Shown piece after piece: positions 4,338 through 63,215 of a stretch of 64,000 nt of DNA (position 1 is the stretch's first letter; every line of letters begins with the position of its first letter). The stretch covers positions 31,166,957-31,230,956 of the forward strand of contig NC_057719.1 of the NCBI RefSeq assembly GCF_004010195.1, in the 5' to 3' direction. Below the pieces are notes generated by a model. It saw only the letters and a list, made by a program, of their open reading frames with translations. It did not search any database and was not told where the DNA came from. Made by a program: the position numbers and the translations under genes. Source of the stretch: Chiloscyllium plagiosum. Lineage: Eukaryota.

Positions 4338-4522
4338 GGAGAAAGTGAGGTCTGCAGATGCTGGAGATCAGAGCTGAAAATGTGTTGCTGGAAAAGCGCA
4401 GCAGGTCAGGCAGCATCCAGGGAACAGGAGAATCGACGTTTCGGGCATATGCCCGAAACATCGATTCTCCTGTTCTCTGGATGCTGCCTGACCTGCTGCG
4501 CTTTTCCAGCAACACATTTTCA
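4338..4522 (-). mobile_element. Palindromic PLE-derived mini-element (hammerhead core deleted at the palindrome centre)
   Basis: Inverted arms centred ~4450. TSD gctatt(g/t)aaaacattga at 4321-37 and 4523-39. Confidence 0.85.
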
Positions 4523-9740: not shown

Positions 9741-9906
9741 TAAACTACATCTGAATGATAACAGATTGGAAAAGGGGATGGTGCAACAAGACCTGGGTGT
9801 CCTTACACAACAGTTGCTGAAAGCAAGCTTGCAGATGGAAAAGGTAAACATTATGTTGGTCTTCACAGCATTAAGATTCAAGTGCAGGAACAAGGATATC
9901 TTGCTG

Positions 9907-11084
9907 GATGTAGGTTTGATCGCTGAGCTGGAAGGTTCATTTCCAGATGTTTCATCACCCGACTAAGTAACATCTTCAGTGAACCTCAGGCGAAGCACTG
10001 CTGATAATTCTTGCTTTCTATTTATGTGTTTGGGTTGGTGATGTCATTTCCGATGATGTCCCTTTCTGTTCTTTTTCTCAGGAGGTGGTAGATGGGGTCT
10101 AACTCGATGTATTTGTTGATAGAGTTCCAGTTGGAATGCCATGCTTCTAGGAATTCTCGTACGTGTCTTTGTCTGGCTTGTCCTAGGATGGATGTGTTGT
10201 CCCAGTCGAACTACAGAAGCAATCATCCCAACATCCACAAACGAAGCTGCATCAGAACATAATTTCAATGAGCCAACACACAATGCAGCACAGAGGAACT
10301 ATGCAGAGCAGAGGAAAATCACCTATACAGTGTATTAAAAAAAAATGGGTACCCAATGAACACAGTCCGCTGATTTCTCAGCAACAACCCCAAACAAGAA
10401 GACAAAACACGTCCAGAAACCCTAGCCACTCTCCCCTACATCAAAGGCATCTCGGAAATGACTGCCAGACTACTCAGACCGCTTAGCATCATGGTAGCCC
10501 ACAAACCAGTCAACACACTAAAACAGCAGCTAATGTATTTGAAAAACCCTATGCAGACAACAAGCCAAACTAATGTCATTTACAAAATACCGTGCAAGGA
10601 CTGTAACAAACACTACATTGGACAAAAAGGCAGAAAACTACCCACCAGGATACATGAACACCAACTAGCCACAAAAAGACATGACCCTCTCGCACCAGTA
10701 TCCTTACATACAGATGAGGAAGGACATCACTTTGACTGGGACAACACATCTATCCTAGGACAAGCCAAACAGAGACCCGCACGAGAATTCATAGAAGGAT
10801 GGCATTCCAACTGGAACTCTATCAACAAACACATCAAGTTAGACCCATCTACCACCCCCTGAGAAAAAGAACAGGTAGTGACTTCACCACAGGAAATGAC
10901 ATCACCAACCCAAAGAAACCCAAACATATAAATAGAAAGCAGGACTTATAAGCAGTGCTTTGCCTGAGGCCTGAAGATGTTAACTAATAGGATGACGAAA
11001 CGTCTGAAAATGAACCTTCCAGCTCAGCAAGCAAACCTACATCCGGAACCTCAACCTGAGCTACAAATCTTCTCAAAACTTGCT
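9907..11084 (+). mobile_element. Penelope-like element (Poseidon-type) 3' fragment with GIY-YIG endonuclease and inverted 3' duplication, nested in a + strand CR1
   Basis: ORF 10458-10862 NVIYKIPCKDCNKHYIGQ..R..RIHEH (GIY-YIG). 9907-10210 is an inverted copy of ~10735-11045. TSD aaggat(a/g)tcttgctg at 9892-9906 and 11085-99. The host CR1 reads KDILL|QLYRALVR across the insertion. Confidence 0.9.
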
Positions 11085-11424
11085 AAGGATGTCTTGCTGC
11101 AGTTATACAGAGCCTTGGTGAGGTTGGAGCATTGTGTGCAGTTTTGGTCTCCTTATCTGAGGAAGGATCTCTGGATCTGAAGGGAATGCAGCAGAGAAGA
11201 AGTAGACTGGAATGACAGGGCTGAGGTATGAAGAGATAATGGATCAGTTAGGACAATATTCACTGGTGACTAGAAGAATGTAGAGACAGAAAAACCCAAA
11301 TCAACATCTCCATTCAACTGACATGCATAGCAATGTGAAAAATCACACATCACCAGGTTATAGTCCAACGGGTTTATTTGGAGGCACTACCTTTCAGTGA
11401 CAAAGAAGCAGCGCTTCAAAAGCT

Positions 11425-17149: not shown

Positions 17150-18905
17150 ATGTCGATTAAGAACCTGTAAACTGACAAATTTTCTAGAATTCTTTGAAGA
17201 GGCAAGAAGTGAGTTAGATCAAGAGAAAGCAAGGGATGAATATATTTAGATTTTCAGAAGGCATTTAAATAGGTACCACACATTAAGCTTAATAAACCAA
17301 CAGCCTATAGTAATGCATGTTGTATATTAACATGGGTAGGGGACTGGCTAACAAATAGAAGACAGTTGGGATAAGTGGGCATTTTCAGGGTGGTAACCTG
17401 TAATTGGTAGATTATCACAGGGATCAATACTGGCGTCACAATTATTTTCAAAATATTTTGATGACTTTGGTGAGGAAAGTGAATGTACTATAGCTGAATT
17501 TGCAGATAACACAAAAATTAAGACAAATGATAAGGATGACATAAAGAGTGTGCAGAAAGATGTAAACAGGTTAAGCAAGTGAGCAAAAACTTGTCAGATG
17601 AAATATAATGTGGGAAAATGTGAACTTGTGCAAGAAGAATAGAGGAACTGAATATTATGTAAGTGGAGAAAGATTACAGAAAGCTATGGAACAGAGGGAT
17701 TTGGGAGTCCTTGTCCATCACAGAAAGCTCGCATCGATGGGTAAAAGGAAAGGCATGTAGAATGTTGGTATTTATTTCAACCAGAATGGAATATAAAAGT
17801 AGAGAGGTTTGACCAAAACTAGACAAGGCACTAGTCAGACCACAGCTGGAATACTGTGAACAGCTTTAGGCTCCTTATCTCAGGAAAGGTATATTAACAT
17901 TGGAGACAGTCCAGAGAAGGTTAACCAGGCTGAAAACAGATATGGGAGCATTGTCTCATGGGGACAGGTTACATCAATTGGGCCTGTAATTGCTGGATTT
18001 TAGAATAATGAGAAGCAACATTATTGAACATACAAGCTTCTTAAGGAACTTGACATTGTGGATGCAGAAAGGTTGTTTCCCCTTCTGGAAGGGTTTTTTT
18101 GATTACAGATTACATTACAGTGTGGAAACAGGCCCTTCGGCCCAACAAGTCCCACCGACCCGCCAAAGCGAACCCACCCATACCCCTACATTTACCCCTT
18201 ACCTAACACTACGGGCAATTTAGTATGGCCAATTCACCTGACCCTGCACACCTTTGGACTGTGGGAGGAAACCGGAGCACCCGGAGGAAACCCACGCAGA
18301 CACGGGGAGAACATGCAAACTCCACACAGTCAGTCGCCTGAGGCGGGAATTCAACCCGGGTCTCTGGCGCTGTGAGGCAGCAGTGCTAACCACTGTGCCA
18401 CCATGCCGCCCACAAATTGGGCTATGCCCAATCTCCTGGACTGATGACAATTAATGTTGAGTTATTATGCTGGCACTCCCTGCCTGAAAGGTGTCTCTCT
18501 TGAACTAACTGCAGACTACTTCCTGTCGACCTTGAGACATGGCCATTTGGTTGAATCATATTTGATACGAATGCAGCTGGTACATAGCACAAATGCCTAC
18601 AGCAAAGTATCCACTGTCTCAATTCTAGGGCAACAGGACATAATCTTGGAACAAATGGTCATATAGTTAAGACAGAGATGAGAAGGAATTTATTCTCTCA
18701 AGGAGTTATGAACCTGTGGAATCCTTTATGGAAGAGGGCTGTCAAGACTGGATCGTTAAGTATATTCAAGGTTAAGTAGACAGACTTTAAATCAGTAAGG
18801 GAATAAAGGTTTATGGGAATAAGGCAGGAGAGTGGAGTTGAGGATTATCAGATCAGTTGTGATCTCAATGATTGGTGGGGCAGACTTGTACAAAATGGCC
18901 TACCT
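17150..18905 (+). mobile_element. CR1 LINE fragment interrupted by a SINE
   Basis: Degenerate RT motifs (tttgcagataacacaaaa) and CR1 3' end. Confidence 0.75.
18100..18412 (-). mobile_element. HE1-type V-SINE (young)
   Basis: Near-identical reverse complement of 18911-19210. Confidence 0.9.
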
Positions 18906-18910
18906 CTTTG

Positions 18911-19210
18911 TGGGCGGCACGGTGGCACAGTGGTTAGCACTGCTGCCTTACAGCGCCAGAGACCCGGGTTCAATTCCCGACTCAGGCGACTGACTGTGTG
19001 GAGTTTGCACATTCTCCCCGTGTCTGCGTGGGTTTCCTCCGGGTGCTCCGGTTTCCTCCCACAGTCCAAAGATGTGCAGGTCAGGTGAATTGGCCATACT
19101 ATATTGCCCGTAGTGTTAGGTAAGGGGTAAATGTAGGGGTATCAGTGGGGCGGTGTGGACTTGTTGGGCCGAAGGGCCTGTTTCCACACTGTAAGTAATC
19201 TAATCTAATC
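18911..19210 (+). mobile_element. HE1-type V-SINE (young, full length)
   Basis: gggcggcacggtggcacagtggttagc (box A), gggttcaattccc (box B), V-domain, taatctaatc tail. Confidence 0.9.
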
Positions 19211-28235: not shown

Positions 28236-29939
28236 TCCTCCCACTCTTATGATGTACACCTTGACTGATAAAGGCAAGCTTCCAGCATGCCTTCTTACAT
28301 TCCCCATTAAGCTGTCCTGTCACCTTCAGGATCTATGGACAAGCGCCAAGATCCTTCTATTCTTCTGAGCTTCCTAATGTCATGCCATTTCATTGAATAC
28401 TCCCTTGTCTTGTTAGTTCTTCCAAAATATATGACCTCACAATTATCAGGATTACATTCCAACTGTCAGTGGTCTTCTAGTCTGTTTATATCCTTCTGTA
28501 ACCTTCCTCCCATCAACGACCTGGCCAATCTTTATGTCATGTGCAACTTATCATGCCTCACCACATTTTCATCTACATCATTTATGAAATTCACAAACAA
28601 ACAAAGGGCCAAACACTGATCCTTGTAGTATCCCATTGCACACTGGTCTCCAATCACATACACAGTCTTCCACCACCACCCTCTGTCTCCTGTCAACGCC
28701 TCATCTTCACCATGGAAAGCTCATAGTCCCACAACCCCGCACCGCCCGTTTCTACCTCCTGCCCAAAATCCACAAACCTGACTGCCCCGGACGACCCATC
28801 GTCTCAGCCTGCTCCTGCCCCACCGAACTCATCTCCGCATACCTCGACACGGTCCTGTCCCCATTAGTCCAAGAACTCCCCACCTACGTTCGTGACACCA
28901 CCCACGCCCTCCACCTCCTCCAGGATTTCCGCTCCCCCGGTCCCCAACGCCTCATCTTCACCATGGACACCCAGTCCCTGTACACCTCCATCCCCCATCA
29001 CGAAGGACTCAAAGCACTCCGCTCCTTCCTTTCCCGCCGTACCACCCAGTACCCTTCCACCGACACCCTCCTTCGACTGACCGAACTGATCCTCACCCTG
29101 AACAACTTTTCTTTCCAATCCTCCCACTTTCTCCAAACAAAAGGAGTAGCCATGGGCACCCCCATGGGCCCCAGCTATGCCTGCCTCTTCGTAGGGTATG
29201 TGGAACAATCCATCTCCCGCAACTACACTGGCCCCACCCCCCATCTTTTCCTCCGCTACATTGATGACTGTATCGGCACTACCTCGTGCTCCCACGAGGA
29301 GGTTGAACAGTTCATCCACTACACTAACACCTTCCACCCAGACCTCAAATTCACCTGGANNNNNNNNNNNNNNNNNNNNNNNNNNNNNNNNNNNNNNNNN
29401 NNNNNNNNNNNNNNNNNNNNNNNNNNNNNNNNNNNNNNNNNNNNNNNNNNNNNNNNNNNNNNNNNNNNNNNNNNNNNNNNNNNNNNNNNNNNNNNNNNNN
29501 NNNNNNNNNNNNNNNNNNNNNNNNNNNNNNNNNNNNNNNNNNNNNNNNNNNNNNNNNNNNNNNNNNNNNNNNNNNNNNNNNNNNNNNNNNNNNNNNNNNN
29601 NNNNNNNNNNNNNNNNNNNNNNNNNNNNNNNNNNNNNNNNNNNNNNNNNNNNNNNNNNNNNNNNNNNNNNNNNNNNNNNNNNNNNNNNNNNNNNNNNNNN
29701 NNNNNNNNNNNNNNNNNNNNNNNNNNNNNNNNNNNNNNNNNNNNNNNNNNNNNNNNNNNNNNNNNNNNNNNNNNNNNNNNNNNNNNNNNNNNNNNNNNNN
29801 NNNNNNNNNNNNNNNNNNNNNNNNNNNNNNNNNNNNNNNNNNNNNNNNNNNNNNNNNNNNNNNNNNNNNNNNNNNNNNNNNNNNNNNNNNNNNNNNNNNN
29901 NACAGCACAGCAGGTCAGGCAGCATCTAGGGAACAGAAG

Positions 29940-29975
29940 ATTCGACGTTTCGGGCACATGCCCTTCTTCAGGAAT
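29940..29975 (-). ncRNA. Minimal hammerhead ribozyme motif (inverted arm)
   Basis: Reverse complement reads attc CTGAAGA a GGGC atgt GCCC GAAA c GTC gaat. Confidence 0.8.
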
Positions 29976-30242
29976 GAGCAGAGAGTGTTCAGCAGGAGAA
30001 GATAAAAGGTAGGGAGGAGGGACTTGGAGGAGGGGAGTTGGAAGTGGAGGAGATGCGGTGGAGGGCACCGTCGACCACGTCGCCTTCCTGACCTGCAGTC
30101 TTCTTGTTGACCTCTCCGCCTCCATCCTACTCCGACCTATCACCCTCACCTTGACCTCTTTCCACCTATCACATTTCCAACGCCCCTCCTCCAAGTCCCT
30201 CCTCCCTACCTTTTATCTTCTCCTGCTGAACACTCTCTGCTC

Positions 30243-30278
30243 ATTCCTGAAGAAGGGCCTGTGCCCGAAACGTCGAAT
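30243..30278 (+). ncRNA. Minimal type I hammerhead ribozyme motif
   Basis: attc CTGAAGA a GGGC ctgt GCCC GAAA c GTC gaat: core, stem I, stem II and the palindromic ACGT in place of stem III. Confidence 0.8.
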
Positions 30279-32045
30279 CTCCTGTTCCCTGGATGCTGCC
30301 TGACCTGCTGTGCTGTTCCAGCAATAAAGTTTCAACTCCTGCCAATTAGCCAACTTTGGATCCAACTTGTCAAGTTACCTTGGATCACATGACCTTTGTA
30401 CCTTCCTTATCAGTTTCCGAGATGGGATCTCTTCAAAGGCCTTGCTGAATTCCACATAAACCACATCAACTGCCCCACATGCATCTACACACTTTGGTCA
30501 CCTCCTCAAACAAATTCAACGAGATAACATCACTTTTCATAACAAACTGCATCCTCTCCATTGCATTCATATATGTCCTATAATGTGGATTCCAGACTGC
30601 ATATTATACTCTAACTGTAACCTAACCAATGTTTTGTGTAGTACCTACATAATCTCCCTGCTCTTAAACTCTATGCCTCACTTAATAAAAACAAGAATCT
30701 CATATGCCTTCTTAACTACTTTATCTAAGTGTCCTGCTATCTTCAGGAATCAATGGATTTTACACATCAAGATCCCTTTGATCGTTGGTGCTTATCAGGC
30801 TTCTATCATTTATCATTTATTCCCTTGCCCTATCTTTGCTGCCTAAGCATATCACCTAATTGAAATGCTTTTTCACTCAGTATGGTACATCTGGAATCCA
30901 CTGCTTTATTGGGTGAAAAAGGTAGATGTCCTCCATGCATTTAAAAATGTAATTGAATATGCACTTGAAATGATGTAATTTACAGGTCTGCAGACCAAGA
31001 GCGAGAAAGTGGACTAAGACCGTGTAGTATTTTTCAAGTGGCACAGTGGCCAAAAGGACGCCTGCTGTACCGCAAGATTTCCATGTTTTGGAGAGATGTC
31101 ATAGAAGGAACAAAAGTTCTGTTTTGTTTTTACATTCTTACTTTTATATTAGAGTCATAGCACCGTAGAGTTAAACAGCATGGAATCATACCCTTCGGTT
31201 CAATCACTCCATGCTGACCATAATCCCAAACTAAACATGTCCCACCTGCTCTTGACTCATATCCCTCCAAACATTTCTTATTCATGTACTTATCCAAATG
31301 TCTTTTAAGCATTGTAACTAAACCCATATTCAACACTTCCTCTGGAAGTTCATTCCACACATTAACCACTCTGTGTAAAAAAGTCCTTTATGTCTTTTTT
31401 AAATATTTCTCCTCGCACCTTAAAAAATATGCCCCCTTATCATGAAAGCTCCCACCCAATGGAAAAGACACTTGCCATTCACTTTATCTACATACCTCAT
31501 GATTTTATAAACTTATATAAGGAGACTGACCAATGTCCTGTATAACCTCAGCTCCTATACGCAAAGGTCTGAACAATGAAAGCAAGCGTGCTAAACACTT
31601 TCTTAACTACCGTTTGTACATGTGACACAAACTTCAAAGAATTATAAACCTGAATTAGTCCTGCTCGTTTGTTTAATCAAAATGCAATACCTTGTATTTA
31701 TCCAAATTATCTCCATCTGCTACTCTTCAGCCCACTGACCCAATTGTATCCTCTGTAATTGTCTCATTACTGGCAGTTACACTGATCATCCTGGAAATTG
31801 CTGGGGCTATATTTACATTTTTCTGAACAAGGATGTAATGCTTGCAATTTTCAATTCCTCCACCACCAACTCCAGAATCCAGGGAAGATCCAAAGATTAT
31901 GGCAAGTACCTCTTACAATTTCCACTCTTACTTCTTTCAATATCTTTTGAGGCATTTCATCCAGTGCCAATACTTTGTCAACTTTAAGTACTGACAGTTT
32001 ATCCCATTCCTCCTCATCAATTTAAATGTAGACCCAAGAAAAGTA

Positions 32046-34389: not shown

Positions 34390-37300
34390 TGGAGTCATAC
34401 AGCACGAAAACAAGCCCTTTGGCCAACTCACCCATGCCAACCAGGCTCCCAACTGAAGTAGTCCCATTTGCTTGTGGTTGGTCCATATCCTTCTGAACCT
34501 TTCCCATCCATGTATCTGTCCAAATGTCTTTTAAATGTTGTAATTGTACTCACCTGTACTATGTCCTCTGGCAGGTTGTTTCATATACACACTATCCACT
34601 GTATGAAAATGTTGCCCCTCAGGTCCCTTTTAAATCTTTCCCCTCTCACATTAGACTTATGTTCCTAGTTTTGGATTTCTTTACCCTTGGAGAAAAGACC
34701 TTGGATATCCACCTTATTTATGGCATTCATGATTTTATAAACGTCTCTAACGTTACCCTTTAGCCTCCTACACTCCAGGAAAGAAAAGTCCCATGGAGAA
34801 AGTGAGGACTGCAGATGCTGGAGATCAGAGTCAAGAGTGTGGTGCTGGAAAAGCACAGCTGGTCAGGCAACATCCGAGGAGCAGGAGAATCAACGTTTTG
34901 GGCATTAGCCCTGAGGAAATAATAAGCCCTAACGAAAAGCTTGTGCCTGAAACGTCGATTCTCCTGCTCCTCGGATGCTGCCTGACCGGCTGTGTTTTTC
35001 CAGCACCACACTCTCAACGAAAAAAGTCCCAGCCTCAACCATATAACTCAAACCTTCTAGTCTTGGTAAATCTTTTTTGAACTATTTCCAGTTTAATAAC
35101 ATCCTTCCTATAGCAAGGTGACCAGAATTGAATGCAGTACTCCAGAAGTGGCTTTACCAATATCTTATATGGTCATAACATAACACCCCAACTATTATAC
35201 TCATTGCTTTGACTGAAGAAGAGAAGCAGTCTGACCACCTTCTTCACCACTTTGTCTACTTGTGACCCAACTTTCAAGGAACTATGCACCTGCACCACTA
35301 GATCTCTCTGTTCAACAATGCTCCCCCGGGCCCTATCATTAACTCTGTAAATCCTACTCTGGTTTGCCTTACCAAAATGCAACACATTGCATTTATCTGA
35401 ATTAAACTCCATCTGCCATTCCTCAGCCCACTGACCCAGTTGATCAAGATCCCATTGCATCATTACATAATATTCTTCCCTGTCCACTATATCACCAATT
35501 TTGCAGTGTCACCGGCAAACTTACAAACCATGCTTCCTTTATTCTCATCCAAATTGTTTATTTAAATGACAAACAACAGTGGATTCAGTGCCGATTTTTG
35601 TGGCACACTGCTGGTCACAGGCCTCCAGTCTGAACAACAACCCACTACCGTCGCCCTCTGTCACCTATCATCAAGCCAATGTTCTATCCAATTGGCTAGC
35701 TCTCCCTGAATCCCAAGTGATCTAACCTAAACTGTCTACCACGTAAAACCCCGAGAAAGGCCTTTCTAAAGATCATGTGCACAATGTCTACCACTCTGCT
35801 TTCATCTATCTTCTTAGTCACATCTTCAAAAGTCTCAAACAAATTTGTGAGGCACAATTTCCCATGCACAAAGCCATGTTGTCTATCCCTAAACAGTCCT
35901 TGCCTTGGTAGGTCCTGTGTCTCAGAATTCCCTCCAACACCTTGCCTACCACTGGCTTTGGGCTCACTAGTCTGCAGTTCCCAGGCTTTTCCTTGCAGCC
36001 TATCTTAAATAATGACACAACACTCTCCAGTCTTCTGGCACCTCGCATGTGGCTATAAATGATACAAATATCTCTGCTTAGGTCCATGCAATTTCTTCCC
36101 TAGCTTCTCAGTGTTCTGGGATACACCTGATCAGGTCCCTGGGATTTGTCTACCTTTATGCATTTTAACACCTCTAGCACCTTCTCTTCTGTCATGTGGA
36201 CTCTTTTCAAGACATCACTATTTATTTCACCAAGTTCCCTAGCTCCCATGTCTTTCTCCATGGCAAATACTGGTGAGAAATATTTGTTTTGGACCTCACC
36301 CATCTCCTGTGATGCCACACATAGACAGTGTCATTGATCTTTAAGGGGCCCAATTCCTCCATGGTTACTCTTCTGTCCTTAACATGCTTGGAGAATCCCT
36401 TATATTTCTTAAGAGATTTGCTCGATCCCAGCTGCCCATACCTGACAATATGCCTGCTTTTTCTTGACCAGGCCCTAACTACCTCTAGTTATCCAGTGTT
36501 TTCTACTCCTGCCAGCCTTGCCCTTTATACTAAAAGGAATATGTTGTCTGTGAACTTTCATTATCTCGCTTTTGAAAGCCTCCCACTTGCCAGACATCCC
36601 TTTACCCATGAACGCTCTCCCTCATGCAACTTTTGAAAGTTCCTGTCTAATACCATCAAAATTGGCCTTATCCAAATTTAGAACTTTAACTTGTGGACCA
36701 TGTCTATTCTTTTTTAATAACTATTTTAATAACTATTTTTAATAGTATTATGGTCAGGGGTCCCAAAGTGCTCCCCCACTGACACTTCAGTCACTTGCCC
36801 TGCCTTATTTCCCAAGAAGAGGTCACGTTTTGCGCCTTCTATAGTAGGCCCATCTACATATTTATTGAAAACATTTTATTGAACACACTTAAATTCCTGA
36901 CGATTCAATCCCTTATCACTGACAGTCCCAGTCTATGTTTGGAAAGTTAAAATCTCTGATAATTTCAACCCTATTATTCCTACAGCTATTTGCAATCTCC
37001 TTACAAATTTGCTCCTTAATTTCCCGATGACACGGGGTGGGGTTATAGTGCAATCCCAAAGCGATCACCCATTTTAGCGAGTTTTGAGAAGATTTGTAGC
37101 TCAGGTTGAGGTTCTGGGTGTAGGTTTGCTCGCTGAGTTGGAAGGTTCATTTCCAGACGTTTCATCACCCTACTAGGCAACATCTTCAATGGGCCTCAGG
37201 CGAAGCACTGCTGAAAATTCCTGCTTTCTGTTATATGTTTGGGTTTCTTTGGATTGGTGATGCCCCCTCCTCGCTTGCCTCCCTTTCCATCCTTATGGAT

Positions 37301-37547: not shown

Positions 37548-37638
37548 AAGAGTGTGGTGCTGGAAAAGCACAGCCAGTCAGGCAGCATCCAAGGAGCAGG
37601 AGAGTCAAAGTTTTGAGCATAAGCTCTTCATCAGGAAT
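37548..37638 (-). mobile_element. Single pLTR arm with degenerate hammerhead
   Basis: Reverse complement reads attc CTGATGA a GAGC ttat GCTC aaaa. Confidence 0.7.
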
Positions 37639-39835: not shown

Positions 39836-39982
39836 AATGTCAGAATACAAATCTGGGACATTGTCACCTACTGTGAGAACTGCTTTTAACTACTCTGTCC
39901 CAACTATTTTGATACAATTTGTTTCCCTCTCAATTTGATTTAGTTGCTCCTAAAGTTTCCTTGCTGTGGCATGTCGGAACTG

Positions 39983-41870
39983 TCAGTCGATGAGGTGAGC
40001 ATTATACCCTGTTCTTATGAGGGCATCCCTGAGTTCTTCCAGGTTCCCGTCACATTCCTCCTCATCTGAACAGATCCGGTGTACGCGTAGGACTTGTCCA
40101 TAGGGGATGGCTGTTTTAATACGTTTTGGGTGGAAGCTGGAGAAGTGTAGCATTGTGAGGTTGCATTGTGTGGCTTTGCAGTAGAGTGTGGTGCTGAGGT
40201 GTCCATCCTTGGTGGAGATACATGTGTCCAAGAATGAGATAGATAGTCGAGTGTAGTCCATGGTGGCTTTAGTGGTGGGGTGAAACTTGTTAATATCATT
40301 GTGTTGCTTTATCAGTTACTTCTACCCATGGGTCCAGAGGAAGAAAATGTCGTCAATGTACCTGGTGTACAATATTGTTTGGAGGTCCTGCGTAGAGAAG
40401 AAGTCTTGTTCAAACCTATGCATGAAGATGTTGGCATATTGGGGTGCAAATTTGGTCCCCATGGCTGTTCAGTGTGTCAGGATGAAGAACTGGTTGTCAA
40501 AGGTGAAGATGTTGTGATCGAGGACAAAGCAGTCTTCACAGGGATCTGTAGAGGAGCGACAAAGAAGGTGTCAACTTAGCCCCCACTGGAGAGCCGCTGT
40601 CCTGGGCTTGAGATATATGCTCAAACCATCAGGAAATATATAAATGCCAGATTCATCAGCCGTACCCACAAGGTAGAGCAAAATATCACCTGTTCACAAT
40701 GCAACGCCATTCAGGCTCTCAAAACCAATCACAACATTGTCATCAAACCAGCAAATATAGGAGGAGCCATTGTCATTTAGAATAGAACAGATTACTGCAA
40801 GGAAGTGTACCAACAACTGAACAACCAGGAACACTACAGGCAACTATCAGCTGATCCGACCAAAGAACACACCCGTGAATTAAACACATTGATCAGGACT
40901 TTGGATCCAGTCCTTCAGAGTTCCCTACGCGCCCTCATCCACGTACTTCTCGTGTAGGTAACTTCTACTGCCTTCCAAAGGTACACAAAGCCAACACACT
41001 AGGACATCCCATCGTATCAGGCAATGGGACCCTGTGTGAGAATCTCTCTGGATATGTTGAAGGCATCTTGAAACCTATCGTACAGGGAATCCCGAGCTTC
41101 TGTCGCGACACTACAGATTTCTTACAGAAACTCAGCACCCACGGATCAGTCAAACCGGGAACATTCCTCGTCACAATGGATGTTTCTGCACTCTACACCA
41201 GCACCCCCTATAATGACGGCATTGCGGCAACAGCCTCAGTACTCAACACCAACAACTGCCAATCTCCAAACACCATCCTACAACTCATCCGCTTTATCCT
41301 CGATCACAACATCTTCATCTTTGACAACCAGTTCTCCATCCAGACACACTGAACAGCTACTGGATCAAATTTTCACCCCAATATGCCAACATATTCATGC
41401 ACAGGTTGTAGGTACACTTCCTTGCACAAGACATCTTCTCTACGCAGGACCTCCAACCAACACTATACACCAGGTACATTGACGACATTTTCTTCCTCTG
41501 GACCCATGGCAAGGAGCCACTGATAAAGCTACAGTGATATCAACAAGTTTCATCCCAACATCAAACTCACCATGGACTATCTGTCTCATTCTTAGACACA
41601 TGCATCTCCACCAAGGATGGACGCCTCAGCACCACACTCTACCATAAAGCCACAACCTCTCAATGCTACACTTCTCCAGCTTCCACCCAAAACATTTTAA
41701 AACCGCCATTCCCTATGAACAAGCCCTACGCATACACCAGATCTGTTCAAATGAGGAGGAACGTGACGAGCACCTGGAAGCACTCATGGATGCCCTCATA
41801 AGAACGGGGTACAATGTTCAACTCATCGACCGACAGTTCCGACGTGCCACAGCAAGGAACCGTAATGACC
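39983..41870 (+). mobile_element. Penelope-like element (Neptune-type) RT fragment with inverted duplication
   Basis: RT pieces RDTTDFLQKL..LVTMDVSALYTS, YIDD, KTAIPYEQALRIHQICS. 39983-40530 is an inverted copy of ~41290-41835. Confidence 0.88.
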
Positions 41871-48438: not shown

Positions 48439-48657
48439 TAGGAGAAAGTGAGGACTGCAGATGCTGGAGATCAGAGCTGAAAATGTGTTGCTGGAAAAGC
48501 GCAGCAGGTCAGGCAGCATCCAAGGAGCAGGAGAATCGACGTTTCGGGCATGAGCCCTTCATGAATTCCTGAAGAAGGGCTCATGCCCGAAACGTCGATT
48601 CTCCTGCTCCTTGGATGCTGCCTGACCTGCACTTTTCCAGCAACACATTTTCAGCTC
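48439..48657 (-). mobile_element. Palindromic PLE-derived mini-element with a + strand hammerhead (48563-48601)
   Basis: Perfect 15-bp TSD tgactctagttcttc at 48424-38 and 48658-72. CTGAAGA a GGGC tcat GCCC GAAA c GTC. Confidence 0.9.
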
Positions 48658-49617
48658 TGACTCTAGTTCTTCAAGGTTTATCTGAATTCTGTTAACTAGT
48701 TTCAAAAAGAACAGGAATATTTGTTTGACAGTCTTACCATTGAATCTGGGCACTATCTGAATGGAAGAAATTAACGTTTTAGGTCAATGGCCTTCCATTA
48801 GAACTATCATTGATGTGAAAATGGTAGTGGGACTAATTAGTTATGTTCTTGTCTTCATGCTGACAGACCTGCTGAGTGTTTCCACTATTTTCTGTTTTCA
48901 TTTTGATATAGCATTTTGCTTTTGCAGTCCCTGCAAGTTTATTTATATTGCACATTTATCATCTCTCATAGTGAAGTATAAAGGCAGTGAAGTAGGAGTT
49001 AAAATTTTAAAGGGCTTTCGATTTCAGGATTAGAGAGAATGTGGTTTCTACTGACTAGTAACTTGAGGATAAGAAAAAATAAAATGGAATTAAATGTGGT
49101 TCTGTTTTTTTAAAAAATGTCTTTCTAAACACTTTTTAAAAAATCTCGAATGTTTCCGAGGCACCTCACCATTTGTCAGCAACAAATATTCAGATTGTGT
49201 TCCGGATGCCTAAATTTACTTTTGTTCCTTTTCTGCTGCAGTCTGATCATTCGGGTGTTTAGATTCAAAGCATGATGCAGCTTGGGAAACAAGTTCTGAC
49301 CATTTGGTATAAAGTTCGTACCACTCATTGTCAGTCTGGTGTGCTTCAAAGAGAGCTTTGGAGTGTAAAACATTTTTGTTCTCTACAGGAGAAATAGCTA
49401 TTTGAGATTTGTCAAACCAAGATCTGCTAGGGAGAAGCCCCTTTCGGACTTCAGACAGGCTGTCCTGGTGACATTTGTAGTTGGTTTTTCTTCACAGGGT
49501 TGATCTGAATTCTTGAGAATCTGGTTTCAAGAAGAACAGTTAATTTAGTTGATGGTCCTCCCATTGAATCTAGCAGAAACACTCAGTGGAATTTCTTCTT
49601 TGCTGTTACATATTGCT

Positions 49618-49736
49618 AATGCAGACTGGGTCTCTCTGCAATGCAGACTGGGTCTCTCTGCAATGCAGACTGGGTCTCTCTGGCAATGCAGACTGGGTCT
49701 CTCTGCAATGCAGACTGGGTCTCTCTGCAATGCAGA
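49618..49736 (+). repeat. 22-bp minisatellite, ~5.4 copies (aatgcagactgggtctctctgc)
   Basis: Directly visible. One unit has an extra g. Confidence 0.95.
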
Positions 49737-50659
49737 TTGATGACCCCTCCTGTGTACACAAGATTTTTGACTTAGTTTTGAATATAAAAATGCAGTTTCT
49801 TTTTTAACTGGCTAGGCTACAACTAGAGAAATGCATCCAGTTTTGATCACATTTAAGTATGTGAAAGTGCTCGAGTGCAAAGGAGATTTGCCTGACTGGT
49901 TCTTGGGGTAAGGATGATATTAAATGAAAAGTCAAGTTTGAGAAGCTACAGTTATTTTCTCTGGAGCAAGAGCAATTGGTTTGATAACTTTTCACATTTG
50001 TGACCCTTTTAAGATAAAATGGACAAAAAAAGCTTTTCCATTATCTGGCAGTCCAAGAACTTAAAAACAAAAATAAGGTATTGGCAGGGGGTACAAGGGG
50101 GAAATGAAAAAAAATATTTTTTTAACTCAGTAGTTATGAGCTGGAACTTCCTGCCGGCAAGGATGGTGAGAGTTGAGCTTGTAAATAGGTTGGGCGAGTC
50201 CAGAACTAAAGGGCACAGGTTTAGGGTGAGAAAGGAAAGATTGAAAAGGGACGTAGGGGGCAATGTTTTCACGCGTTGTGCACATATGGAATGAGCTGCC
50301 TGAGGAAGTTATGGAGGCTAGTACAACTACAGCATTTAAATGGTATCTGTGTGGATATATGAATAGGAGGGGTTTAGAGGGATATGGGCCAAATGCCAGA
50401 AAAAGGAATGGATTTAGTTAGGATATTTGGTTGGTCCAACTTGTCCACGCCAAAGGGTCTGTTTCTGTGCTGTACGTCTGACTCTAAAAGTGGATAGACA
50501 GTCAAAGTAACAGACTTTCAGGGCCACTGAGATAGAATAGCAGCTTCACACAGCATAGTGGATGTGATGAGTTAAATTGCCACAATTACTGTTGTTGTAA
50601 AGCTTCCATAAGATGATTGAACGTCAGCAAAATAAATTGTGTATGAAATGGAAGATTGA

Positions 50660-51820: not shown

Positions 51821-52651
51821 TATCGGCTCAATATTCAACTCTGGTGGAACCTTGCCCCTGTGAAGTTCTCCAATGTCTGATTTGATGTACTGTTTGCCTG
51901 ACAGCTGGTAGTGGTGGTGTGTGAATTTCTAAAAACAAAATCTTCAGTCTTCATGCAAACTCCCATTTCTTAGCCAGTGACCCCACTCTTCTGAGTTTGA
52001 ACCAAGTGATTTGTAATAGTGTCCTGTCTGATGCAAAGAGGCCAAAATCTAAGATTGTATAGTGTGATCAAATAGGGAGGAATTAACCTGAGGGATGTCA
52101 CCACTTCCTAGAAATTGGGTGGACACTTCTTTAAACACTAAAGCAGTAAAAAGTTTTAATTTTCACTGGTTGAGTGTATAATTTTGAGATTTAGATTCCC
52201 AGCATGCCAGGAGCAAATGCAGAATTTCACCCCAAAAAGCCAAGTTGCTCTGGTTAATGAGATAACACAAAGTTCTCAATTTTGTTTTTGCAGAAAATAT
52301 GCTCTAACTGCAATTATCAAAACAAAAAAACCTTTCTCAAATTAGAATAGTATCCCTACTATGTAAATCTGGATAAGTTAAACTGTCAGAAATAGCATTT
52401 GCCTACATTAAGGCATCAATTAGTTATTGCAATCTCAGTGACAAATAGAACACAACGCCATAAAATCAGTAATATGCTAGATTCTGCTACATTCATCAAT
52501 ACTAAATGTTAGCAGCCACTTCAAGTGCAGCAACAAAAATGCATATTGAGGGACGGAAGTTTCAAACTGCATTTTTTTTAATTGAATCTTCCATCAGTAA
52601 TCAACATTATCCATATAGGCAACATGCATTACCCTACCCTCTGTCACCTTA

Positions 52652-53232
52652 GGAGACAGTAAGGACTGCCAATGCTGGAAGTCAGAATCGATAGATGTGA
52701 AGTTGGAAGAGCACAGGAGGTCAGACAGCATCTGAAGAGAAGGAAAGTCCATGTTTCGGACAGAAACCCTTCGTCAGGTTACCAGCTCCTTTAATTTCTC
52801 CCTCCCACTCCCCCAGCAACATGTCCATCCTTGGTGTCTCCCCCCCCACTCTGTGAAGCCAAACTGAAACTGAAGGAACATCACCACATTATTTCGCATG
52901 GGAAGCTTACAGCCCAATGGCCTCAATGTCAACTTCACTGGCTTCAAAGTCCATCTGCCCCCAGCCTTATCTCATGTGTAGTCCTTCTGCCTCCTTCGCC
53001 TTCCTGACTTATTCCACCCTGTCCATTTTCCTGCTCGCCAATCTGCTCCAGCTTTCCCTCTAACCTGTCACAATAACCACCTCCATGTGTTCATCTATTA
53101 CCATCCCACCTACTCCTCCCAGCCCCACCCCACTCTTTATTTCTGGGCTTCCCTCCCCAGTACCAATAAAGGGTTTTGGCCCAAAACAGTGACTTGGCTG
53201 CTCCTTGGGAGCTGTCTGCCCTACTATGCTCA
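52652..53232. mobile_element. Neptune-type PLE remnant: inverted pLTR arm + endonuclease C-terminus + pyrimidine-rich 3'UTR
   Basis: Minus strand ctgacgaagggtttctgtccgaaac. Plus strand degenerate ..PSHSPSNMSILG..IFRMGSLQPNGLNVNF. Confidence 0.7.
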
Positions 53233-55968: not shown

Positions 55969-57189
55969 GTAAGTGAATTCTGGACAAGACAGTGCTGCAA
56001 GAAATATGCTCGAGTGGCTGACACCAATTTTGTTCAGTTGAAGCAGGCACAATATTATTAATACATGTGTTTGCAAACATGTAACATAAACTGGGTGTCA
56101 GCATAATGCTTGGCACACTTCAGGACTGGCAGATCATGAGAGACTATGTCCTTTCAGCTGTTTGCAACAGGCAAGGTGCTGACTGTGTTCAACCAGCCCA
56201 ACTTGCAAAACTGAAGAAAACATTAGGTGCAATTCCAGCATGTGACAAATAATCCTAGATCTGGCAGGAATTGCACTGATAACCAACTTAAGATGGTCAT
56301 TTGGGTTTGCAGTATGGTGCACTTGCGCGCGCACACACACAAACTACAAGCATTAACACACAGGTCACTGTTAATGGTAGGCAAAAATTGCAGCCTCTTC
56401 AATTGAATAAAACATGCAATAATCATTCTCTGGTCAAGATGTTGCTCTGAAGAGGAAACCAAAGTCAACCATGTCTGGTTTAAATTTAAACAAATCTTGG
56501 TTGATGACTGAAAGTTAACTATGCATTCTCCATAGCAATATGTCTATCAGAGTGCACTTGTCACCCACCCAGCGCATAATTTTGTTGCATAAAATGCCAT
56601 TCCCCACTACATTGCAGTCATCAGGACATTCAAGATTCCAATGTAAAGAGCTTTGATATTCATTTTAGCCTCCCTTTGCATTGTACTGCCAATGTTTTCA
56701 ACTTGAAATTTATTGAACTAACTGATTTATGAATCAATAATTTTGACAACTAGCCATCCTAATGCTTCATAGAAGTTTGGCAGTCTACAATGGAGGTTTA
56801 TCCTATTATACAGTTGATCAAGGTTTTTGGTTTGTTCATAAAGTTAAGTAGGCCAAGTTTTTGAAATCTTTTGTCATGAATCTTATTCTGATTTTCAATG
56901 TCATAATATGCTGAACTGTATTAAAATTATTGCTCAGTGGTAAATTGTTAAGCTGTAGCTTATGCTTTGCTCTTCATTATTTTTGCGAAATAGAAAATTA
57001 TTGTTGGGTAGAGTTGGTTTAGACTACTCGAGAGTTTGGATACCAATAAGAACCAAAAAGATCTGCAGGTGCTGTAAATAAGAATCCAAAGCAGGAGTTG
57101 CTAGAGAAGCTCAGCAGGTCTGGTAGCATCTGTGAAGAGAAATCAAGGTTAATATTTTGGGTCCAATGACTCTAACAAACCTACCATAA

Positions 57190-60080: not shown

Positions 60081-60232
60081 CCTTTTAAAAAGCTCCTATT
60101 TAAAATCCTCATTCTCCAGCTCAGGGTTTGTTTTTAATTTATGGTATGCATACTTTTATTGCACCCTTTTTTAATGCCAGGAAGGTAGTTAGGTATCAGT
60201 CACATTTGAGAGTCTGGGGTAATGCAAGTCAG

Positions 60233-60463
60233 TGTTGAAACTTTATTGCTGGAACAGCACAGCAGGTCAGGCAGCATCCAGGGAACAGGAGATTCGACGT
60301 TTCGGGCACAGGCCCTTCTTCAGGCCCTTCTCATTCCTGAAGAAGGGCCTGTGCCCGAAACGTCGAATCTCCTGTTCCCTGGATGCTGCCTGACCTGCTG
60401 TGCTGTTCCAGCAATAAAGTTTCAACTTTGATCTCCAGCATCTGCAGACCTCACTTTCTCCTC
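60233..60463 (+). mobile_element. Palindromic PLE-derived mini-element with an intact + strand hammerhead (60333-60368)
   Basis: Perfect 15-bp TSD ggtaatgcaagtcag at 60218-32 and 60464-78. The arm is essentially identical to 30240-30336. Confidence 0.92.
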
Positions 60464-61254
60464 GGTAATGCAAGTCAGCCTGGGTAAGGATGGCAGATAT
60501 CCTTCCCTCGGGGGCATGATTGCGTCTGATGGGGATTTTATGACTATCAGTAGTAGTTCATTGTCACCATTAGACTAGTTTTTTTTTAATTTCAAATTTA
60601 ACCTACTGCAGTGGGATTTGGATCCATGTTTATATTAACTTGGATTATGAGCCCAGTGACATTACCACAAAACCACTACAAACCATCGCAGCTGAATTCT
60701 TTCTGCTATTGTAACTTCATTTTTAGGATTAGAAGTTGTCAGTGTCCTACGTGACAAAGGATGGGAATGTGGGTTGTGATGGAGGAAAACCTGTGTAAGT
60801 GAATGGGGACCATGTTAGAGCATGGTCACACGAATTTGGAAACCATCTGTGATTGCCACCTACCACTTCAGCTGATGAAGACCCCAAGATAAATGAACAG
60901 ATTTAGGCTTTTTGACCCAACAAATCTGCTTTACCATTTGATCATGGTTGATTTGTTTCTCAACTGCATTCTCCTGTCTTCTCCCAGTAACCCTTGATCT
61001 TCTTCCTAGCCTTGAATACACTCAATTACTTTGCTTCCACAGCCTTCTGCAGAAGTGAGATCTGCAGATTCACCACCCTCTGCCTTAAGAAATTCCTCAT
61101 GTCTGTTCTAATGCATCATCCCTTTACTGAGGCTGTGCCCTTGAGTCCTAATCCGTTGTCAAAATCTCTTTAAATATATCCCCTCTATCCAGGACTGTCA
61201 GTATTTTGGAAGTTTCAATCGGATCCACCTCATCCTTCTAAACTTCAAATGTAG

Positions 61255-61426
61255 GAGAAAGTGAGGACTGCAGATGCTGGAGATCAGATATGGAAAAGCG
61301 CAGCAAGTCAGGCAGCATCCAAGGACCAGGAGAATCGACGTTTCGGGCATGAGCATTTCCTGAAGAAGGGCTCATGCCCGAAACATCGATTCTCCTGCTC
61401 CTTGGATGCTGCCTGACCTGCTGCGC
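61255..61426 (-). mobile_element. Palindromic PLE-derived mini-element
   Basis: TSD aaact(t/c)caaatgtag at 61240-54 and 61427-41. The hammerhead has GTC changed to ATC. Confidence 0.85.
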
Positions 61427-61979: not shown

Positions 61980-63215
61980 GTTGTCATATACATGAACTTT
62001 AGTAAGGTGTTTGATAAGGTTCCTTATGGTAGACTAATGGAGAAAGTGAAGTCACATTGTGCCAAAAGAGAAAATGCTGGAAAATCTCAACAGGTCTGGC
62101 AGCATTGTGTCGGGTATTCTAGCTAGGTGGATTAAAAAAAACTGGTTGAGCAGCAGGAGACAGTGGTAGTTGAAGGGAGTTTCTCGAAGTGGAGAAAGGT
62201 GACCAGTGGTGTTCCACAGGGGTCAGTGTTGGGTCCACTGTTGTTTGTAATATACATAAATGATCTGGAAGAGGGCACTGTTGGTATGATCAGCAAGTTT
62301 GCAGATGACACGAAGATTGGTGGAGTAGCAGAAAGCATAAGGGACTGTCAGAGAATACAGGCAGATATAGATAGACTGGAGAGTTGGGCTGAAAAGTGGC
62401 AGATGGTTCTCAATCCAGACAAATGTGAGGTGATGTATTTAGGCAAGACTAATTCTAGAGCGAATTATACACTGAACGGAAGAGCCTTGGGAAAAGTTGA
62501 TGGGCAGAGAGATCAGGGAGTGCAGGTCCATTGTACCCTGAAGGTTGCTGCACGGGTGGATGGAGTGGTCAAGAAGGTATATAGTATGCTTGCCTTCATT
62601 GGACAGGGTATTGAGCATAAGAGCTGGCAAGTCATGTTAAAATTGTACAGGACATTGGTTCGGCTGCATTTAGAATACTGTATACAGTTCTGGTTGCTAC
62701 ATTACCAAAAGGATGTGGACGTTTTGGAGAGGCTGCAGAGAAGGTTTACGAGGATGTTGCCTGGTATGGAAGGTGCTAGCTATGAAGAGAGGTTGAGTAG
62801 GTTAGGTTTGTTTTCATTAGAAAAAAGGAGATTGAGGGGGGACCTGATTGAGGTTTACAAAATCATGAAGGATATAGACAGGATGGATAGAGACAAGCTT
62901 TTTCCCAGGGTGAAGGATTCAATAACAAGAGGTCAAGCTTTCAAGGTGAGAGGTGGAAAGCTAAAGGGGGATACACACGGCAAGTACTTCATACAGAGGG
63001 TGGTGGGAGTTTGGAATGCGTTGCCAGCAGAGGTGGTAGAGGCAGGCACAATAGATTCATTTAAGATGCGTCTGGACAGATGCATGAGTAGGTGGGGAGC
63101 AGAGGGATACAGAACCTTAAGAATTGACCGACCGATTTAGAGAGTACATTTGGATAGGCTCAGGCTTGGAGGGCCGAAGTGCCTGTTCCTGGGCTGTAAA
63201 ATTTCTTTGTTCCTT
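61980..63215 (+). mobile_element. CR1 LINE 3' end, uninterrupted 325-aa RT C-terminal ORF (62163-63140)
   Basis: [34 protein letters not shown] motifs. Confidence 0.92.

What the first reader, a model, noticed from the sequence alone, without database searches (positions are those of the whole stretch)
60218..60478. Non-coding palindromic mini-retroelements carrying a hammerhead ribozyme (retrozyme-like PLE derivatives)
Seen: five ~170-230 bp insertions (4338, 34794, 48439, 60233, 61255) are made of two inverted copies of one arm, each flanked by its own TSD. The arm matches the pLTR next to the Neptune RT fragment (30182-30336) and contains CTGAAGA-stem II-GAAAC-GTC. Known: PLE pseudo-LTRs carry minimal type I hammerheads that are thought to cleave as dimers. 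Inference: these are either a non-autonomous, ribozyme-processed family mobilised in trans, or recurrent extreme 5'-truncation plus inversion products of the PLE. The palindrome centre differs in every copy, which favours independent formation at each insertion.
Basis: partly seen in the sequence, partly recalled or inferred. Interest (0 to 1): 0.75.

Follow-up and report, generated by a model that had tools for sequence, protein, structure and literature searches.

The report
Head-to-head stubs of a shark Penelope retroelement
The five small mirror-image inserts are real, but they are paired end-pieces of a Penelope-type jumping gene in a shark-like genome, likely built anew at each insertion, and their hammerhead ribozyme motif is mostly broken or predicted to be zipped shut, so they are ordinary debris rather than a new ribozyme-driven mobile element.

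Summary
Observation confirmed. Five 172-231 bp inserts, each flanked by its own 10-17 bp TSD, consist of two head-to-head copies of the 3' end (pLTR) of a Neptune-type Penelope-like element (PLE) whose RT fragment lies at 28.7-29.4 kb. In 5 of 5, only one arm carries the 36-nt PLE 'tail'. All five centres differ, and the arms belong to three subfamilies. This inverted-pLTR-plus-tail layout is published. A second, unrelated PLE in the window (9907-11084) has the same layout. The minimal hammerhead is real, with cleavage predicted after 60364. But it is complete in 1 of 10 arms, absent from 2 of 5 inserts, never tandem, and predicted to cost 57 kcal/mol to fold inside the hairpin. Retrozyme membership fails. 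Extra point: all 12 short arms start within 26 nt at the hammerhead's front edge, and reads from three species-labelled data sets pile up there. This looks like the RNA's 5' end rather than random truncation. Likely mechanism: both target nicks prime reverse transcription, one at each known start site, and the two short cDNAs are end-joined. The scan noted the same elements on other pieces of this genome.

The parts
60218..60232 (+). left target-site duplication (15 bp)
   Evidence: identical to 60464-60478
60234..60324 (-). tailless inverted pLTR arm; has both hammerhead core boxes but has lost the 5' strand of stem I
   Evidence: 91/91 complementary to 60336-60426; stem I 2 of 4
60325..60335 (.). 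centre of the palindrome; begins with a short repeat of nearby arm sequence (templated-insertion-like)
   Evidence: sequence
60333..60368 (+). minimal type I hammerhead motif: stem I 60333-36/60365-68, core 60337-43, extra A, stem II 60345-48/60353-56, GAAA, palindromic ACGT; predicted cleavage after 60364
   Evidence: activity not tested
60330..60427 (+). tailed pLTR arm (core part)
   Evidence: 99% identical to 30237-30337
60428..60463 (+). 36-nt PLE 'tail', present on one arm only
   Evidence: same tail in loose ends of 218 RNA-library reads behind 30334
60464..60478 (+). right target-site duplication
4338..4522 (.). sister palindrome, subfamily B; tail on the left (minus) arm; centre inside stem II, no hammerhead; TSD 4321-4337/4523-4539 (17 bp, 1 mismatch)
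34794..35021 (.). sister palindrome, subfamily C, older; tail on the left arm; no intact hammerhead; TSD 34784-34793/35022-35031; inserted in a CR1-like repeat
48439..48657 (.). sister palindrome, subfamily B; tail on the left arm; near-complete hammerhead in the tailless arm; TSD 48424-48438/48658-48672
61255..61426 (.). sister palindrome, subfamily B; tail on the left arm; decayed hammerhead in the tailless arm; TSD 61240-61254/61427-61441 (15 bp, 1 mismatch)
37548..37638 (-). solo tailless arm, subfamily C, starts exactly at the first base of stem I; no TSD found
52651..52778 (-). solo tailed arm, most diverged; no TSD found
28714..29358 (+). 5'-truncated RT fragment of a Neptune-type PLE (parent family)
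   Evidence: PF00078 E 5.8e-11; 87% identical to a Chiloscyllium punctatum protein; long relatives carry the Zn-finger-like linker and GIY-YIG
29902..30071 (-). inverted pLTR arm of the larger PLE insertion, with a full hammerhead motif
   Evidence: 96.6% inverted match 29902-30046 / 30172-30316; motif at 29971
30072..30337 (+). forward 3' end / pLTR of the PLE, tailless, full hammerhead 30243-30278; TSD 28687-28696/30336-30345 in a CR1 host

Best explanation
The inserts are head-to-head pairs of the last 70-130 bases of a Neptune-type Penelope-like element, likely built anew at each insertion by the element's own RT/GIY-YIG protein and likely dead on arrival, with the hammerhead as a passenger. 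Shown: the anatomy (TSD, tailless arm, variable centre, tailed arm, TSD), the parent family, three subfamilies, the clustering of 5' ends at the hammerhead's front edge, and the broken state of most hammerheads. Inferred steps: (1) the PLE RNA begins at or near the first base of stem I (30243/60333), which sits in an initiator-like motif; (2) the endonuclease makes a staggered cut about 15 nt apart; (3) both 3'-OH ends prime reverse transcription, one at the tail-end site and one at the core-end site 36 nt upstream, as the two internal start sites of the Anolis PLE do in vitro; (4) both cDNAs run off the RNA's 5' end after about 95 and 130 nt; (5) their free ends are trimmed and joined by microhomology-type end joining, which gives a different centre each time. 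Confidence is about 0.85 for the outer claim (ordinary PLE insertion product, not a family) and about 0.5 for the double-priming detail.
For: Tail on exactly one arm in 5 of 5 inserts, and in the unrelated 9907-11084 element. Outer ends fall at two fixed points: tail end +129 to +131 in 5 of 5 tailed arms, and core end +94/+95 in 3 of 5 tailless arms, with 48k running on by microhomology and 61k at +71. Five different centres. Each arm's nearest or tied-nearest neighbour is its own partner for 60k, 4k, 48k and 34k, and the arms fall into three subfamilies; subfamily A is identical over 73 nt to the RT-linked pLTR. All 12 short arms start at 30237-30262 equivalents. On a single-arm reference, soft-clipped ends with near-random upstream sequence (agreement 0.33-0.42) pile at 30242-30244: 167 reads in the RNA run, and 50, 46 and 46 contigs in the three contig sets; raw-read depth rises about threefold there. 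Opposite-strand joints listed all use 30242/30243 on one side and 30254, 30255 or 30292 on the other. In 48k and 61k each arm holds sequence the other lacks, which a simple fold-back cannot give. A second PLE family has the same layout at 1.2 kb with a 15-bp TSD. Literature: inverted 5'-truncated copy plus one-sided 30-40 bp tail (PMC8557442, passages; PMC3846280, passages and Discussion). Close opposite-strand minimal hammerheads were read as truncated PLEs (PMC4209133). In vitro the Anolis PLE cuts and extends both strands, starts at two internal sites bounding the tail, needs RNA downstream of those sites, and does not need hammerhead cleavage (PMC11167929).
Against: No whole genome was held, so junction sharing was not counted genome-wide. 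One opposite-strand joint (30243/30255) stands in a contig of depth 108, against 3-12 for the six other joints listed for that run, so several copies may share a junction. No pile-up of RNA molecule starts was found at 30243 (table 6), so the start site is not shown; the initiator-like match is weak (1.3% of positions fit the loose consensus, 0.19% the strict one). The depth step in the DNA contigs is largely an artefact of subfamily divergence at 30216-30242. The 60k and 4k centres fit fold-back equally well, and 34k is ambiguous. For 61k the partner arm is not clearly the nearest. The in vitro data come from the Poseidon clade, not Neptune.
Confidence: 0.8

Rival explanations
1. Same origin (PLE insertion by-product), but the second arm is made by fold-back: the first cDNA, or an antisense template, self-primes and is copied back until just short of the tail.
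For: Self-priming was proposed for PLE inverted junctions (PMC3846280 Discussion). The 4k centre is a perfect palindrome on stem II. In 60k the tailless arm lies wholly within the span of the tailed arm. Partner arms are near-identical: 91/91, 83/84, 70/72.
Against: In 48k and 61k the tailless arm reaches the first base of stem I, 9-14 nt further than the tailed arm, while only the other arm has the tail. Neither arm can then be a plain copy of the other unless the centre was deleted later.
Confidence: 0.3
2. A non-autonomous palindromic family: some palindromes are transcribed as hairpin RNA and re-inserted whole by the PLE protein in trans.
For: Fairly uniform size (172-231 bp). The tailed arm keeps the start-site region, with a tail-to-core helix predicted in 6 of 6 tailed arms (no compensatory change). 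One junction has above-single-copy depth. PLE action in trans is documented (PMC3846280).
Against: Five of five centres differ, across three subfamilies. The uniform size follows from fixed end points. The RT would have to unwind a 70-91 bp helix. By analogy with the Anolis element, the copies lack the downstream RNA needed for activity.
Confidence: 0.1
3. Retrozyme-like element: the hammerhead cuts the unit out of a longer RNA, which is circularised and reinserted.
For: A real minimal hammerhead. Among the 40 best-supported variants shown, those inside 30243-30278 fall only at the free core position N7 (30251), loop II (30259, 30261) and one stem I base (30277) (107 more variants were not shown). 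Retrozymes are proposed PLE pLTR derivatives (bioRxiv 10.64898/2026.07.22.740005).
Against: No direct tandem repeats, and never two complete motifs on one strand. 1 of 10 arms complete, 2 of 5 inserts with none. The hammerhead-competent fold costs +57.5 kcal/mol in the palindrome, with pair probabilities about 0, against +0.5 in a single arm. No arm begins at the cleavage site: all 12 begin 13-38 nt upstream of it. No pile-up of read ends there (weak, fragmented poly(A) library).
Confidence: 0.03

Closest known systems
Insertion unit of endonuclease-bearing Penelope-like elements: inverted 5'-truncated pLTR, one-sided 30-40 bp tail, TSD (Arkhipova et al. 2013, PMC3846280; Craig et al. 2021, PMC8557442)
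   Same: Head-to-head inverted pLTR arms, tail on one end only, TSD, small palindromes or overlaps at the junction, parent RT of Neptune type
   Different: Here the unit is cut down to the two pLTR ends with no ORF, and the 5' ends cluster in 26 nt at the hammerhead's front edge; TSDs are about 15 bp against the 8-10 bp in the rotifer passages read
[quoted passage not shown]
   Same: [quoted passage not shown]
   Different: Stem II is 4 bp (7-8 bp in the Schistosoma motifs); in these inserts most motifs are clipped by the junction; sharks are not named in the parts read
Anolis Poseidon PLE (PAc) in vitro (Frangieh et al. 2024, PMC11167929)
   Same: Two adjacent internal RT start sites bounding the tail, downstream of the hammerhead; the tail end here lies about 118 nt after the start of stem II, against 111-118 nt given for a PAc start site
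   Different: Different clade (Poseidon); the parts read do not link two-strand priming to inverted genomic copies
Non-LTR retrozymes (Cervera and De la Pena 2020, PMC7229834; Li et al. 2026, bioRxiv 10.64898/2026.07.22.740005)
   Same: Non-coding, about 170-400 nt, type I hammerhead, pLTR-related
   Different: Retrozymes are direct tandem repeats with at least two complete hammerheads on one strand that release a monomer for circularisation; these inserts are inverted, mostly lack a complete motif and are predicted to block it
LINE-1 twin priming (recalled, from no call)
   Same: Both target nicks prime reverse transcription, and the two cDNAs are joined at microhomologies to give an inversion
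   Different: In L1 the second primer sits upstream on the RNA, so the inversion does not duplicate sequence; here both starts would lie 36 nt apart, giving a near-full palindrome

Membership tests
EN+ Penelope-like element insertion (Neptune type) | PLE-type RT in the parent element | tested here: met
   PF00078; 1053 longer relatives at E <= 0.001, best 87% identical, from sharks and rays
EN+ Penelope-like element insertion (Neptune type) | C-terminal GIY-YIG endonuclease with a Zn-finger-like linker (Neptune/Nematis) | tested here: inconclusive
   Falls in the N gap in the window. Met by proxy: 39 of 40 relatives of 750 aa or more show the Cys linker, 31 of 40 match both patterns; GIY-YIG in P0012 and P0050. 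Neptune versus Nematis was not separated by a tree.
EN+ Penelope-like element insertion (Neptune type) | pLTR in inverted, head-to-head arrangement | tested here: met
   5 of 5 inserts, plus 29902-30337
EN+ Penelope-like element insertion (Neptune type) | 30-40 bp tail on one end only | tested here: met
   36 nt, 5 of 5
EN+ Penelope-like element insertion (Neptune type) | target-site duplication | tested here: met
   10-17 bp in 5 of 5; null 3 of 2930
PLE minimal type I hammerhead | core boxes, stem I and II, extra nucleotide after A9, palindromic helix III | tested here: met
   at 60337, 30247 and 29971; complete in only 1 of the 10 palindrome arms; no Rfam match at gathering score
PLE minimal type I hammerhead | self-cleavage as a dimer | not testable with these tools
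   needs an in vitro assay; a co-fold of two motif copies gave intermolecular stems but not a modelled active dimer
Non-LTR retrozyme | direct tandem repeats with at least two complete hammerheads on one strand | tested here: not met
   arms are inverted; no insert has two complete motifs on one strand
Non-LTR retrozyme | hammerhead free to fold in the unit RNA, unit bounded by cleavage sites | tested here: not met
   +57.5 kcal/mol in the palindrome; arm starts lie 13-38 nt upstream of the cleavage site
Non-LTR retrozyme | abundant discrete linear or circular RNA | tested here: inconclusive
   2011 reads of a poly(A) single-cell run lay on both strands with no pile-up of ends; this library would not show circles
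Self-propagating non-autonomous family (SINE-like) | many unlinked copies sharing one junction and diagnostic changes | tested here: inconclusive
   0 shared centres among 5 in the window; one joint at depth 108 in one contig set; no genome held

The most novel reading that the evidence does not exclude
A subset of these palindromes has become a hairpin-RNA non-autonomous family that the Neptune PLE protein re-inserts whole, for example the junction joining 30243 to 30255, which several copies appear to share. Short of that, the stubs would be a very large natural record of double-ended priming (one nick at each of the two start sites, both cDNAs running off a start site at the hammerhead's edge; about 0.5 likely), which would explain the long-unexplained inverted-plus-tail layout of PLEs.
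Probability: 0.1. Interest if true: 0.65.

Novelty: new member of a known kind. Interest (0 to 1): 0.25.

Why it matters
As an object it is ordinary: a known PLE insertion layout in its shortest form, noted several times already in this genome by this scan. Its use is as material. How PLEs make inverted copies with a one-sided tail is still called undefined in the papers read (PMC8557442). Tens of thousands of contigs per run lay on this one arm, so a census of arm ends could tell double priming from fold-back without a bench. It would also place the RNA's 5' end next to, not at, the hammerhead cut, which bears on whether PLE hammerheads cut the template at all.

Tried and rejected
Whole-genome census: no genome held. 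Rfam at gathering score: 0 matches in 64 kb. A 20-nt arm pattern gave 0 loci in viral contigs, 17 in metagenome contigs and 9 in prokaryote genomes; all 26 matched over at most 27 nt and were dropped as chance. No solved structure related to the RT fragment. No RNA holder listed for the arm, which is no evidence on expression. The threefold depth step at 30243 in DNA contigs was rejected as evidence, because depth upstream at 30144-30206 is nearly as high and the dip at 30216-30242 reflects subfamily divergence; only the soft-clip pile and the raw-read step were kept. A splice acceptor at 30243 was rejected: no AG before it, and upstream loose ends are heterogeneous. An extra G before 30243/30244 in four listed joints (table 5c) might be a cap copy, but the table does not give the joint's orientation and 27 rows were not shown; left as a lead. 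The consensus fold of 6 tailed arms had 0 of 23 pairs with a compensatory change, so the tail-to-core helix is unsupported by covariation. A look-up of earlier findings by sequence gave nothing. Seven paper searches listed no paper on pLTR-only palindromes in sharks or on double priming as their cause; the library is open-access only, and Repbase and Dfam were not searched. A term search in 3 supplementary files of PMC11167929 found nothing; its supplementary figure S2 and the bioRxiv supplements were not seen and may bear on end positions and on shark retrozymes.

Full report
Observation. The insert at 60233-60463 lies between identical 15-bp repeats (60218-60232, 60464-60478) and consists of two arms that are 91 of 91 complementary, an 11-nt centre and an unpaired right-hand extension. 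It folds at -207.5 kcal/mol, z = -25.8, with 0 of 200 shuffles as stable. Their TSDs of 10-17 bp (0-1 mismatch) score 10-16, a level reached by 3 of 2930 random position pairs. Two solo arms without a TSD lie at 37548-37638 and 52651-52778. All five centres differ.

Parent. The arm is the 3' end of a Penelope-like element. The 60k arm is 99% identical to 30237-30337. An RT fragment at 28714-29358 matches PF00078; its best relatives are shark and ray proteins, the closest 87% identical, from Chiloscyllium punctatum, so the window is shark-like. Of 40 relatives of 750 aa or more, 39 show a Cys-rich linker before the endonuclease and 31 match both linker and GIY-YIG patterns (Pfam GIY-YIG in two tested). 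That linker marks the Neptune and Nematis clades (PMC8557442, passages). An N gap (29360-29901) separates RT and pLTR. However, a 10-bp TSD with one mismatch (28687-28696 / 30336-30345) and flanks collinear on another CR1 copy, offset by exactly that TSD, place both within one insertion site. That insertion itself ends in an inverted pLTR pair (29902-30046 / 30172-30316, 96.6%).

The arms are unequal. In 5 of 5 inserts one arm carries a 36-nt extension and the other stops short: tailed arms end at +129 to +131 from the first base of stem I, tailless arms at +94, +95, +94, a microhomology run-on (48k) and +71 (61k). This is the published PLE layout: an inverted 5'-truncated copy, and a 30-40 bp tail often at one end only (PMC8557442; PMC3846280, passages and Discussion; PMC8969392, passages). 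An unrelated PLE in the same window, with a GIY-YIG remnant at 10557-10796, shows the same layout at 1.2 kb: inverted arms 9906-10210 / 10731-11044, about 40 extra nt on one side, hammerhead-like motifs in both arms and a 15-bp TSD. A third, RT-bearing inversion lies at 39957-41859. The small palindromes are therefore the short end of a general PLE product. The arms fall into three subfamilies (60k with the 30 kb pLTR; 4k, 48k and 61k; 34k with the 37k solo), and for four of five inserts the partner arm is the nearest or tied-nearest sequence.

Hammerhead. The motif fits the minimal type I hammerhead described for PLE pLTRs: 4-bp stem I, an extra nucleotide after A9, G10.1-C11.1, and palindromic ACGT in place of helix III (PMC4209133, parts 1-2 of 4 read). 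Rfam gave no match at gathering score. Among the 40 best-supported variants shown for laid reads, those inside the motif fall at N7, loop II and one stem I base (107 more not shown), which suggests selection on the motif in the parent elements. In the palindromes it is a passenger: complete in 1 of 10 arms, near-complete in 1, with a broken stem I or helix III in 2, and missing a core box in 6; the 4k and 34k inserts have none. Forcing the hammerhead fold costs 57.5 kcal/mol in the 60k palindrome against 0.5 in a single arm. Retrozymes are direct tandems with at least two complete motifs (PMC7229834, passages; bioRxiv 10.64898/2026.07.22.740005, parts 1-3 of 5); this test is failed. The 2014 paper already reports pairs of minimal hammerheads about 100-700 bp apart on opposite strands and reads them as truncated PLEs.

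5' ends are not random. All 12 short arms begin at positions equivalent to 30237-30262, two of them exactly at the first base of stem I (30243) and one a base after it; only the two arms of the 30 kb element run further upstream. None begins at the cleavage site. I laid one raw RNA run and three contig sets (two of organism A, one of organism C) on the single arm 30072-30337: 2011 reads and 31270, 25784 and 8157 contigs (4 of the 24 runs listed). Soft-clipped ends with near-random upstream sequence (agreement 0.33-0.42) pile at 30242-30244 (167 reads; 50, 46 and 46 contigs), and raw-read depth rises from 213 to 661 there. The similar step in contig depth is mostly a subfamily artefact and was not counted. 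The four opposite-strand joints listed join 30242/30243 to 30254, 30255 or 30292 (11 reads, 2 contigs). One of these contigs has depth 108 against 3-12 for the run's other listed joints, so a junction may be shared by several copies; with both ends being hot spots this does not need re-copying. No place with many molecule starts or ends was found, neither at 30243 nor at the cleavage site; the library is fragmented poly(A) RNA, so this is weak. Base 30243 sits in an initiator-like motif (consensus recalled; 0.19-1.3% of positions match by chance). PLE promoters lie in the pLTR (PMC2377424, passages).

Mechanism. The Anolis Poseidon PLE cuts and extends both target strands, starts reverse transcription at two internal sites that bound the tail, needs RNA downstream of them, and does not need hammerhead cleavage (PMC11167929, parts 1-2 of 4). 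Applied here by analogy, an RNA that begins at the hammerhead's front edge and is primed at these two sites from the two nicks would give cDNAs of about 95 and 130 nt pointing at each other, to be trimmed and joined. That predicts the size, the one-sided tail, the TSD and the variable centre. It fits 48k and 61k, where each arm holds sequence the other lacks. The 60k and 4k centres fit fold-back, proposed in PMC3846280, equally well, and 34k is ambiguous. The copies would lack the downstream RNA that the Anolis protein needs, so they are likely dead on arrival. I put about 0.85 on 'ordinary PLE product, not a family' and about 0.5 on double priming as the route.

Novelty and verdict. New member of a known kind. 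Seven searches of the open-access library listed no paper on shark pLTR-only palindromes or on double priming as their cause; Repbase and Dfam were not searched. Earlier notes of this scan on other pieces of the same genome describe the same elements and the same clustering of ends; they are unchecked AI notes and not independent support, and my reading was written down before I saw them. Interest 0.25.

Noticed in passing
window 9892-11099: Second, unrelated PLE (GIY-YIG remnant 10557-10796) inserted in a CR1-like repeat as head-to-head arms with a 15-bp TSD, a one-sided extension of about 40 nt, and hammerhead-like motifs with a longer stem II at 10971 (+) and 9979 (-); a solo end of the same family at 37074-37262.
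   Followed up: partly
window 39957-41859: Decayed RT of a third, Neptune-like PLE family in a head-to-head inversion (arms 39957-40530 / 41291-41859, 84%); no pLTR ends seen.
   Followed up: partly
window 28694-28716 and 28945-28967: The 5' junction of the RT fragment starts with an exact 23-bp copy of RT sequence from 250 bp downstream, like a templated insertion at the truncation point.
   Followed up: no
window 28697-30337: Odd order inside one TSD: forward RT, gap, inverted pLTR, forward pLTR. The gap (542 N) looks too short for the rest of the ORF plus a pLTR; may be a nested insertion or an assembly collapse.
   Followed up: no
window 18108-19200: Two copies of a SINE-like repeat (about 300 bp, 91.6%) in inverted orientation 490 bp apart; resemblance to a shark tRNA-derived SINE is recalled, not tested.
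   Followed up: no
window 30243-30277 (table 5c): Four listed joints entering 30241-30244 carry an extra G just before the entry point, possibly a copy of the RNA cap; orientation of these joints is not given.
   Followed up: no
window 60372-60448: The tail is predicted to pair back with the conserved core of the arm in all 6 tailed arms (12 pairs, no compensatory change); a candidate signal for the two RT start sites.
   Followed up: partly
window 49596-49761: 22-bp tandem repeat, about 6 copies.
   Followed up: no
window 57059-57130 and 62039-62105: Faint (about 70%) matches to the arm core, probably older PLE ends.
   Followed up: no
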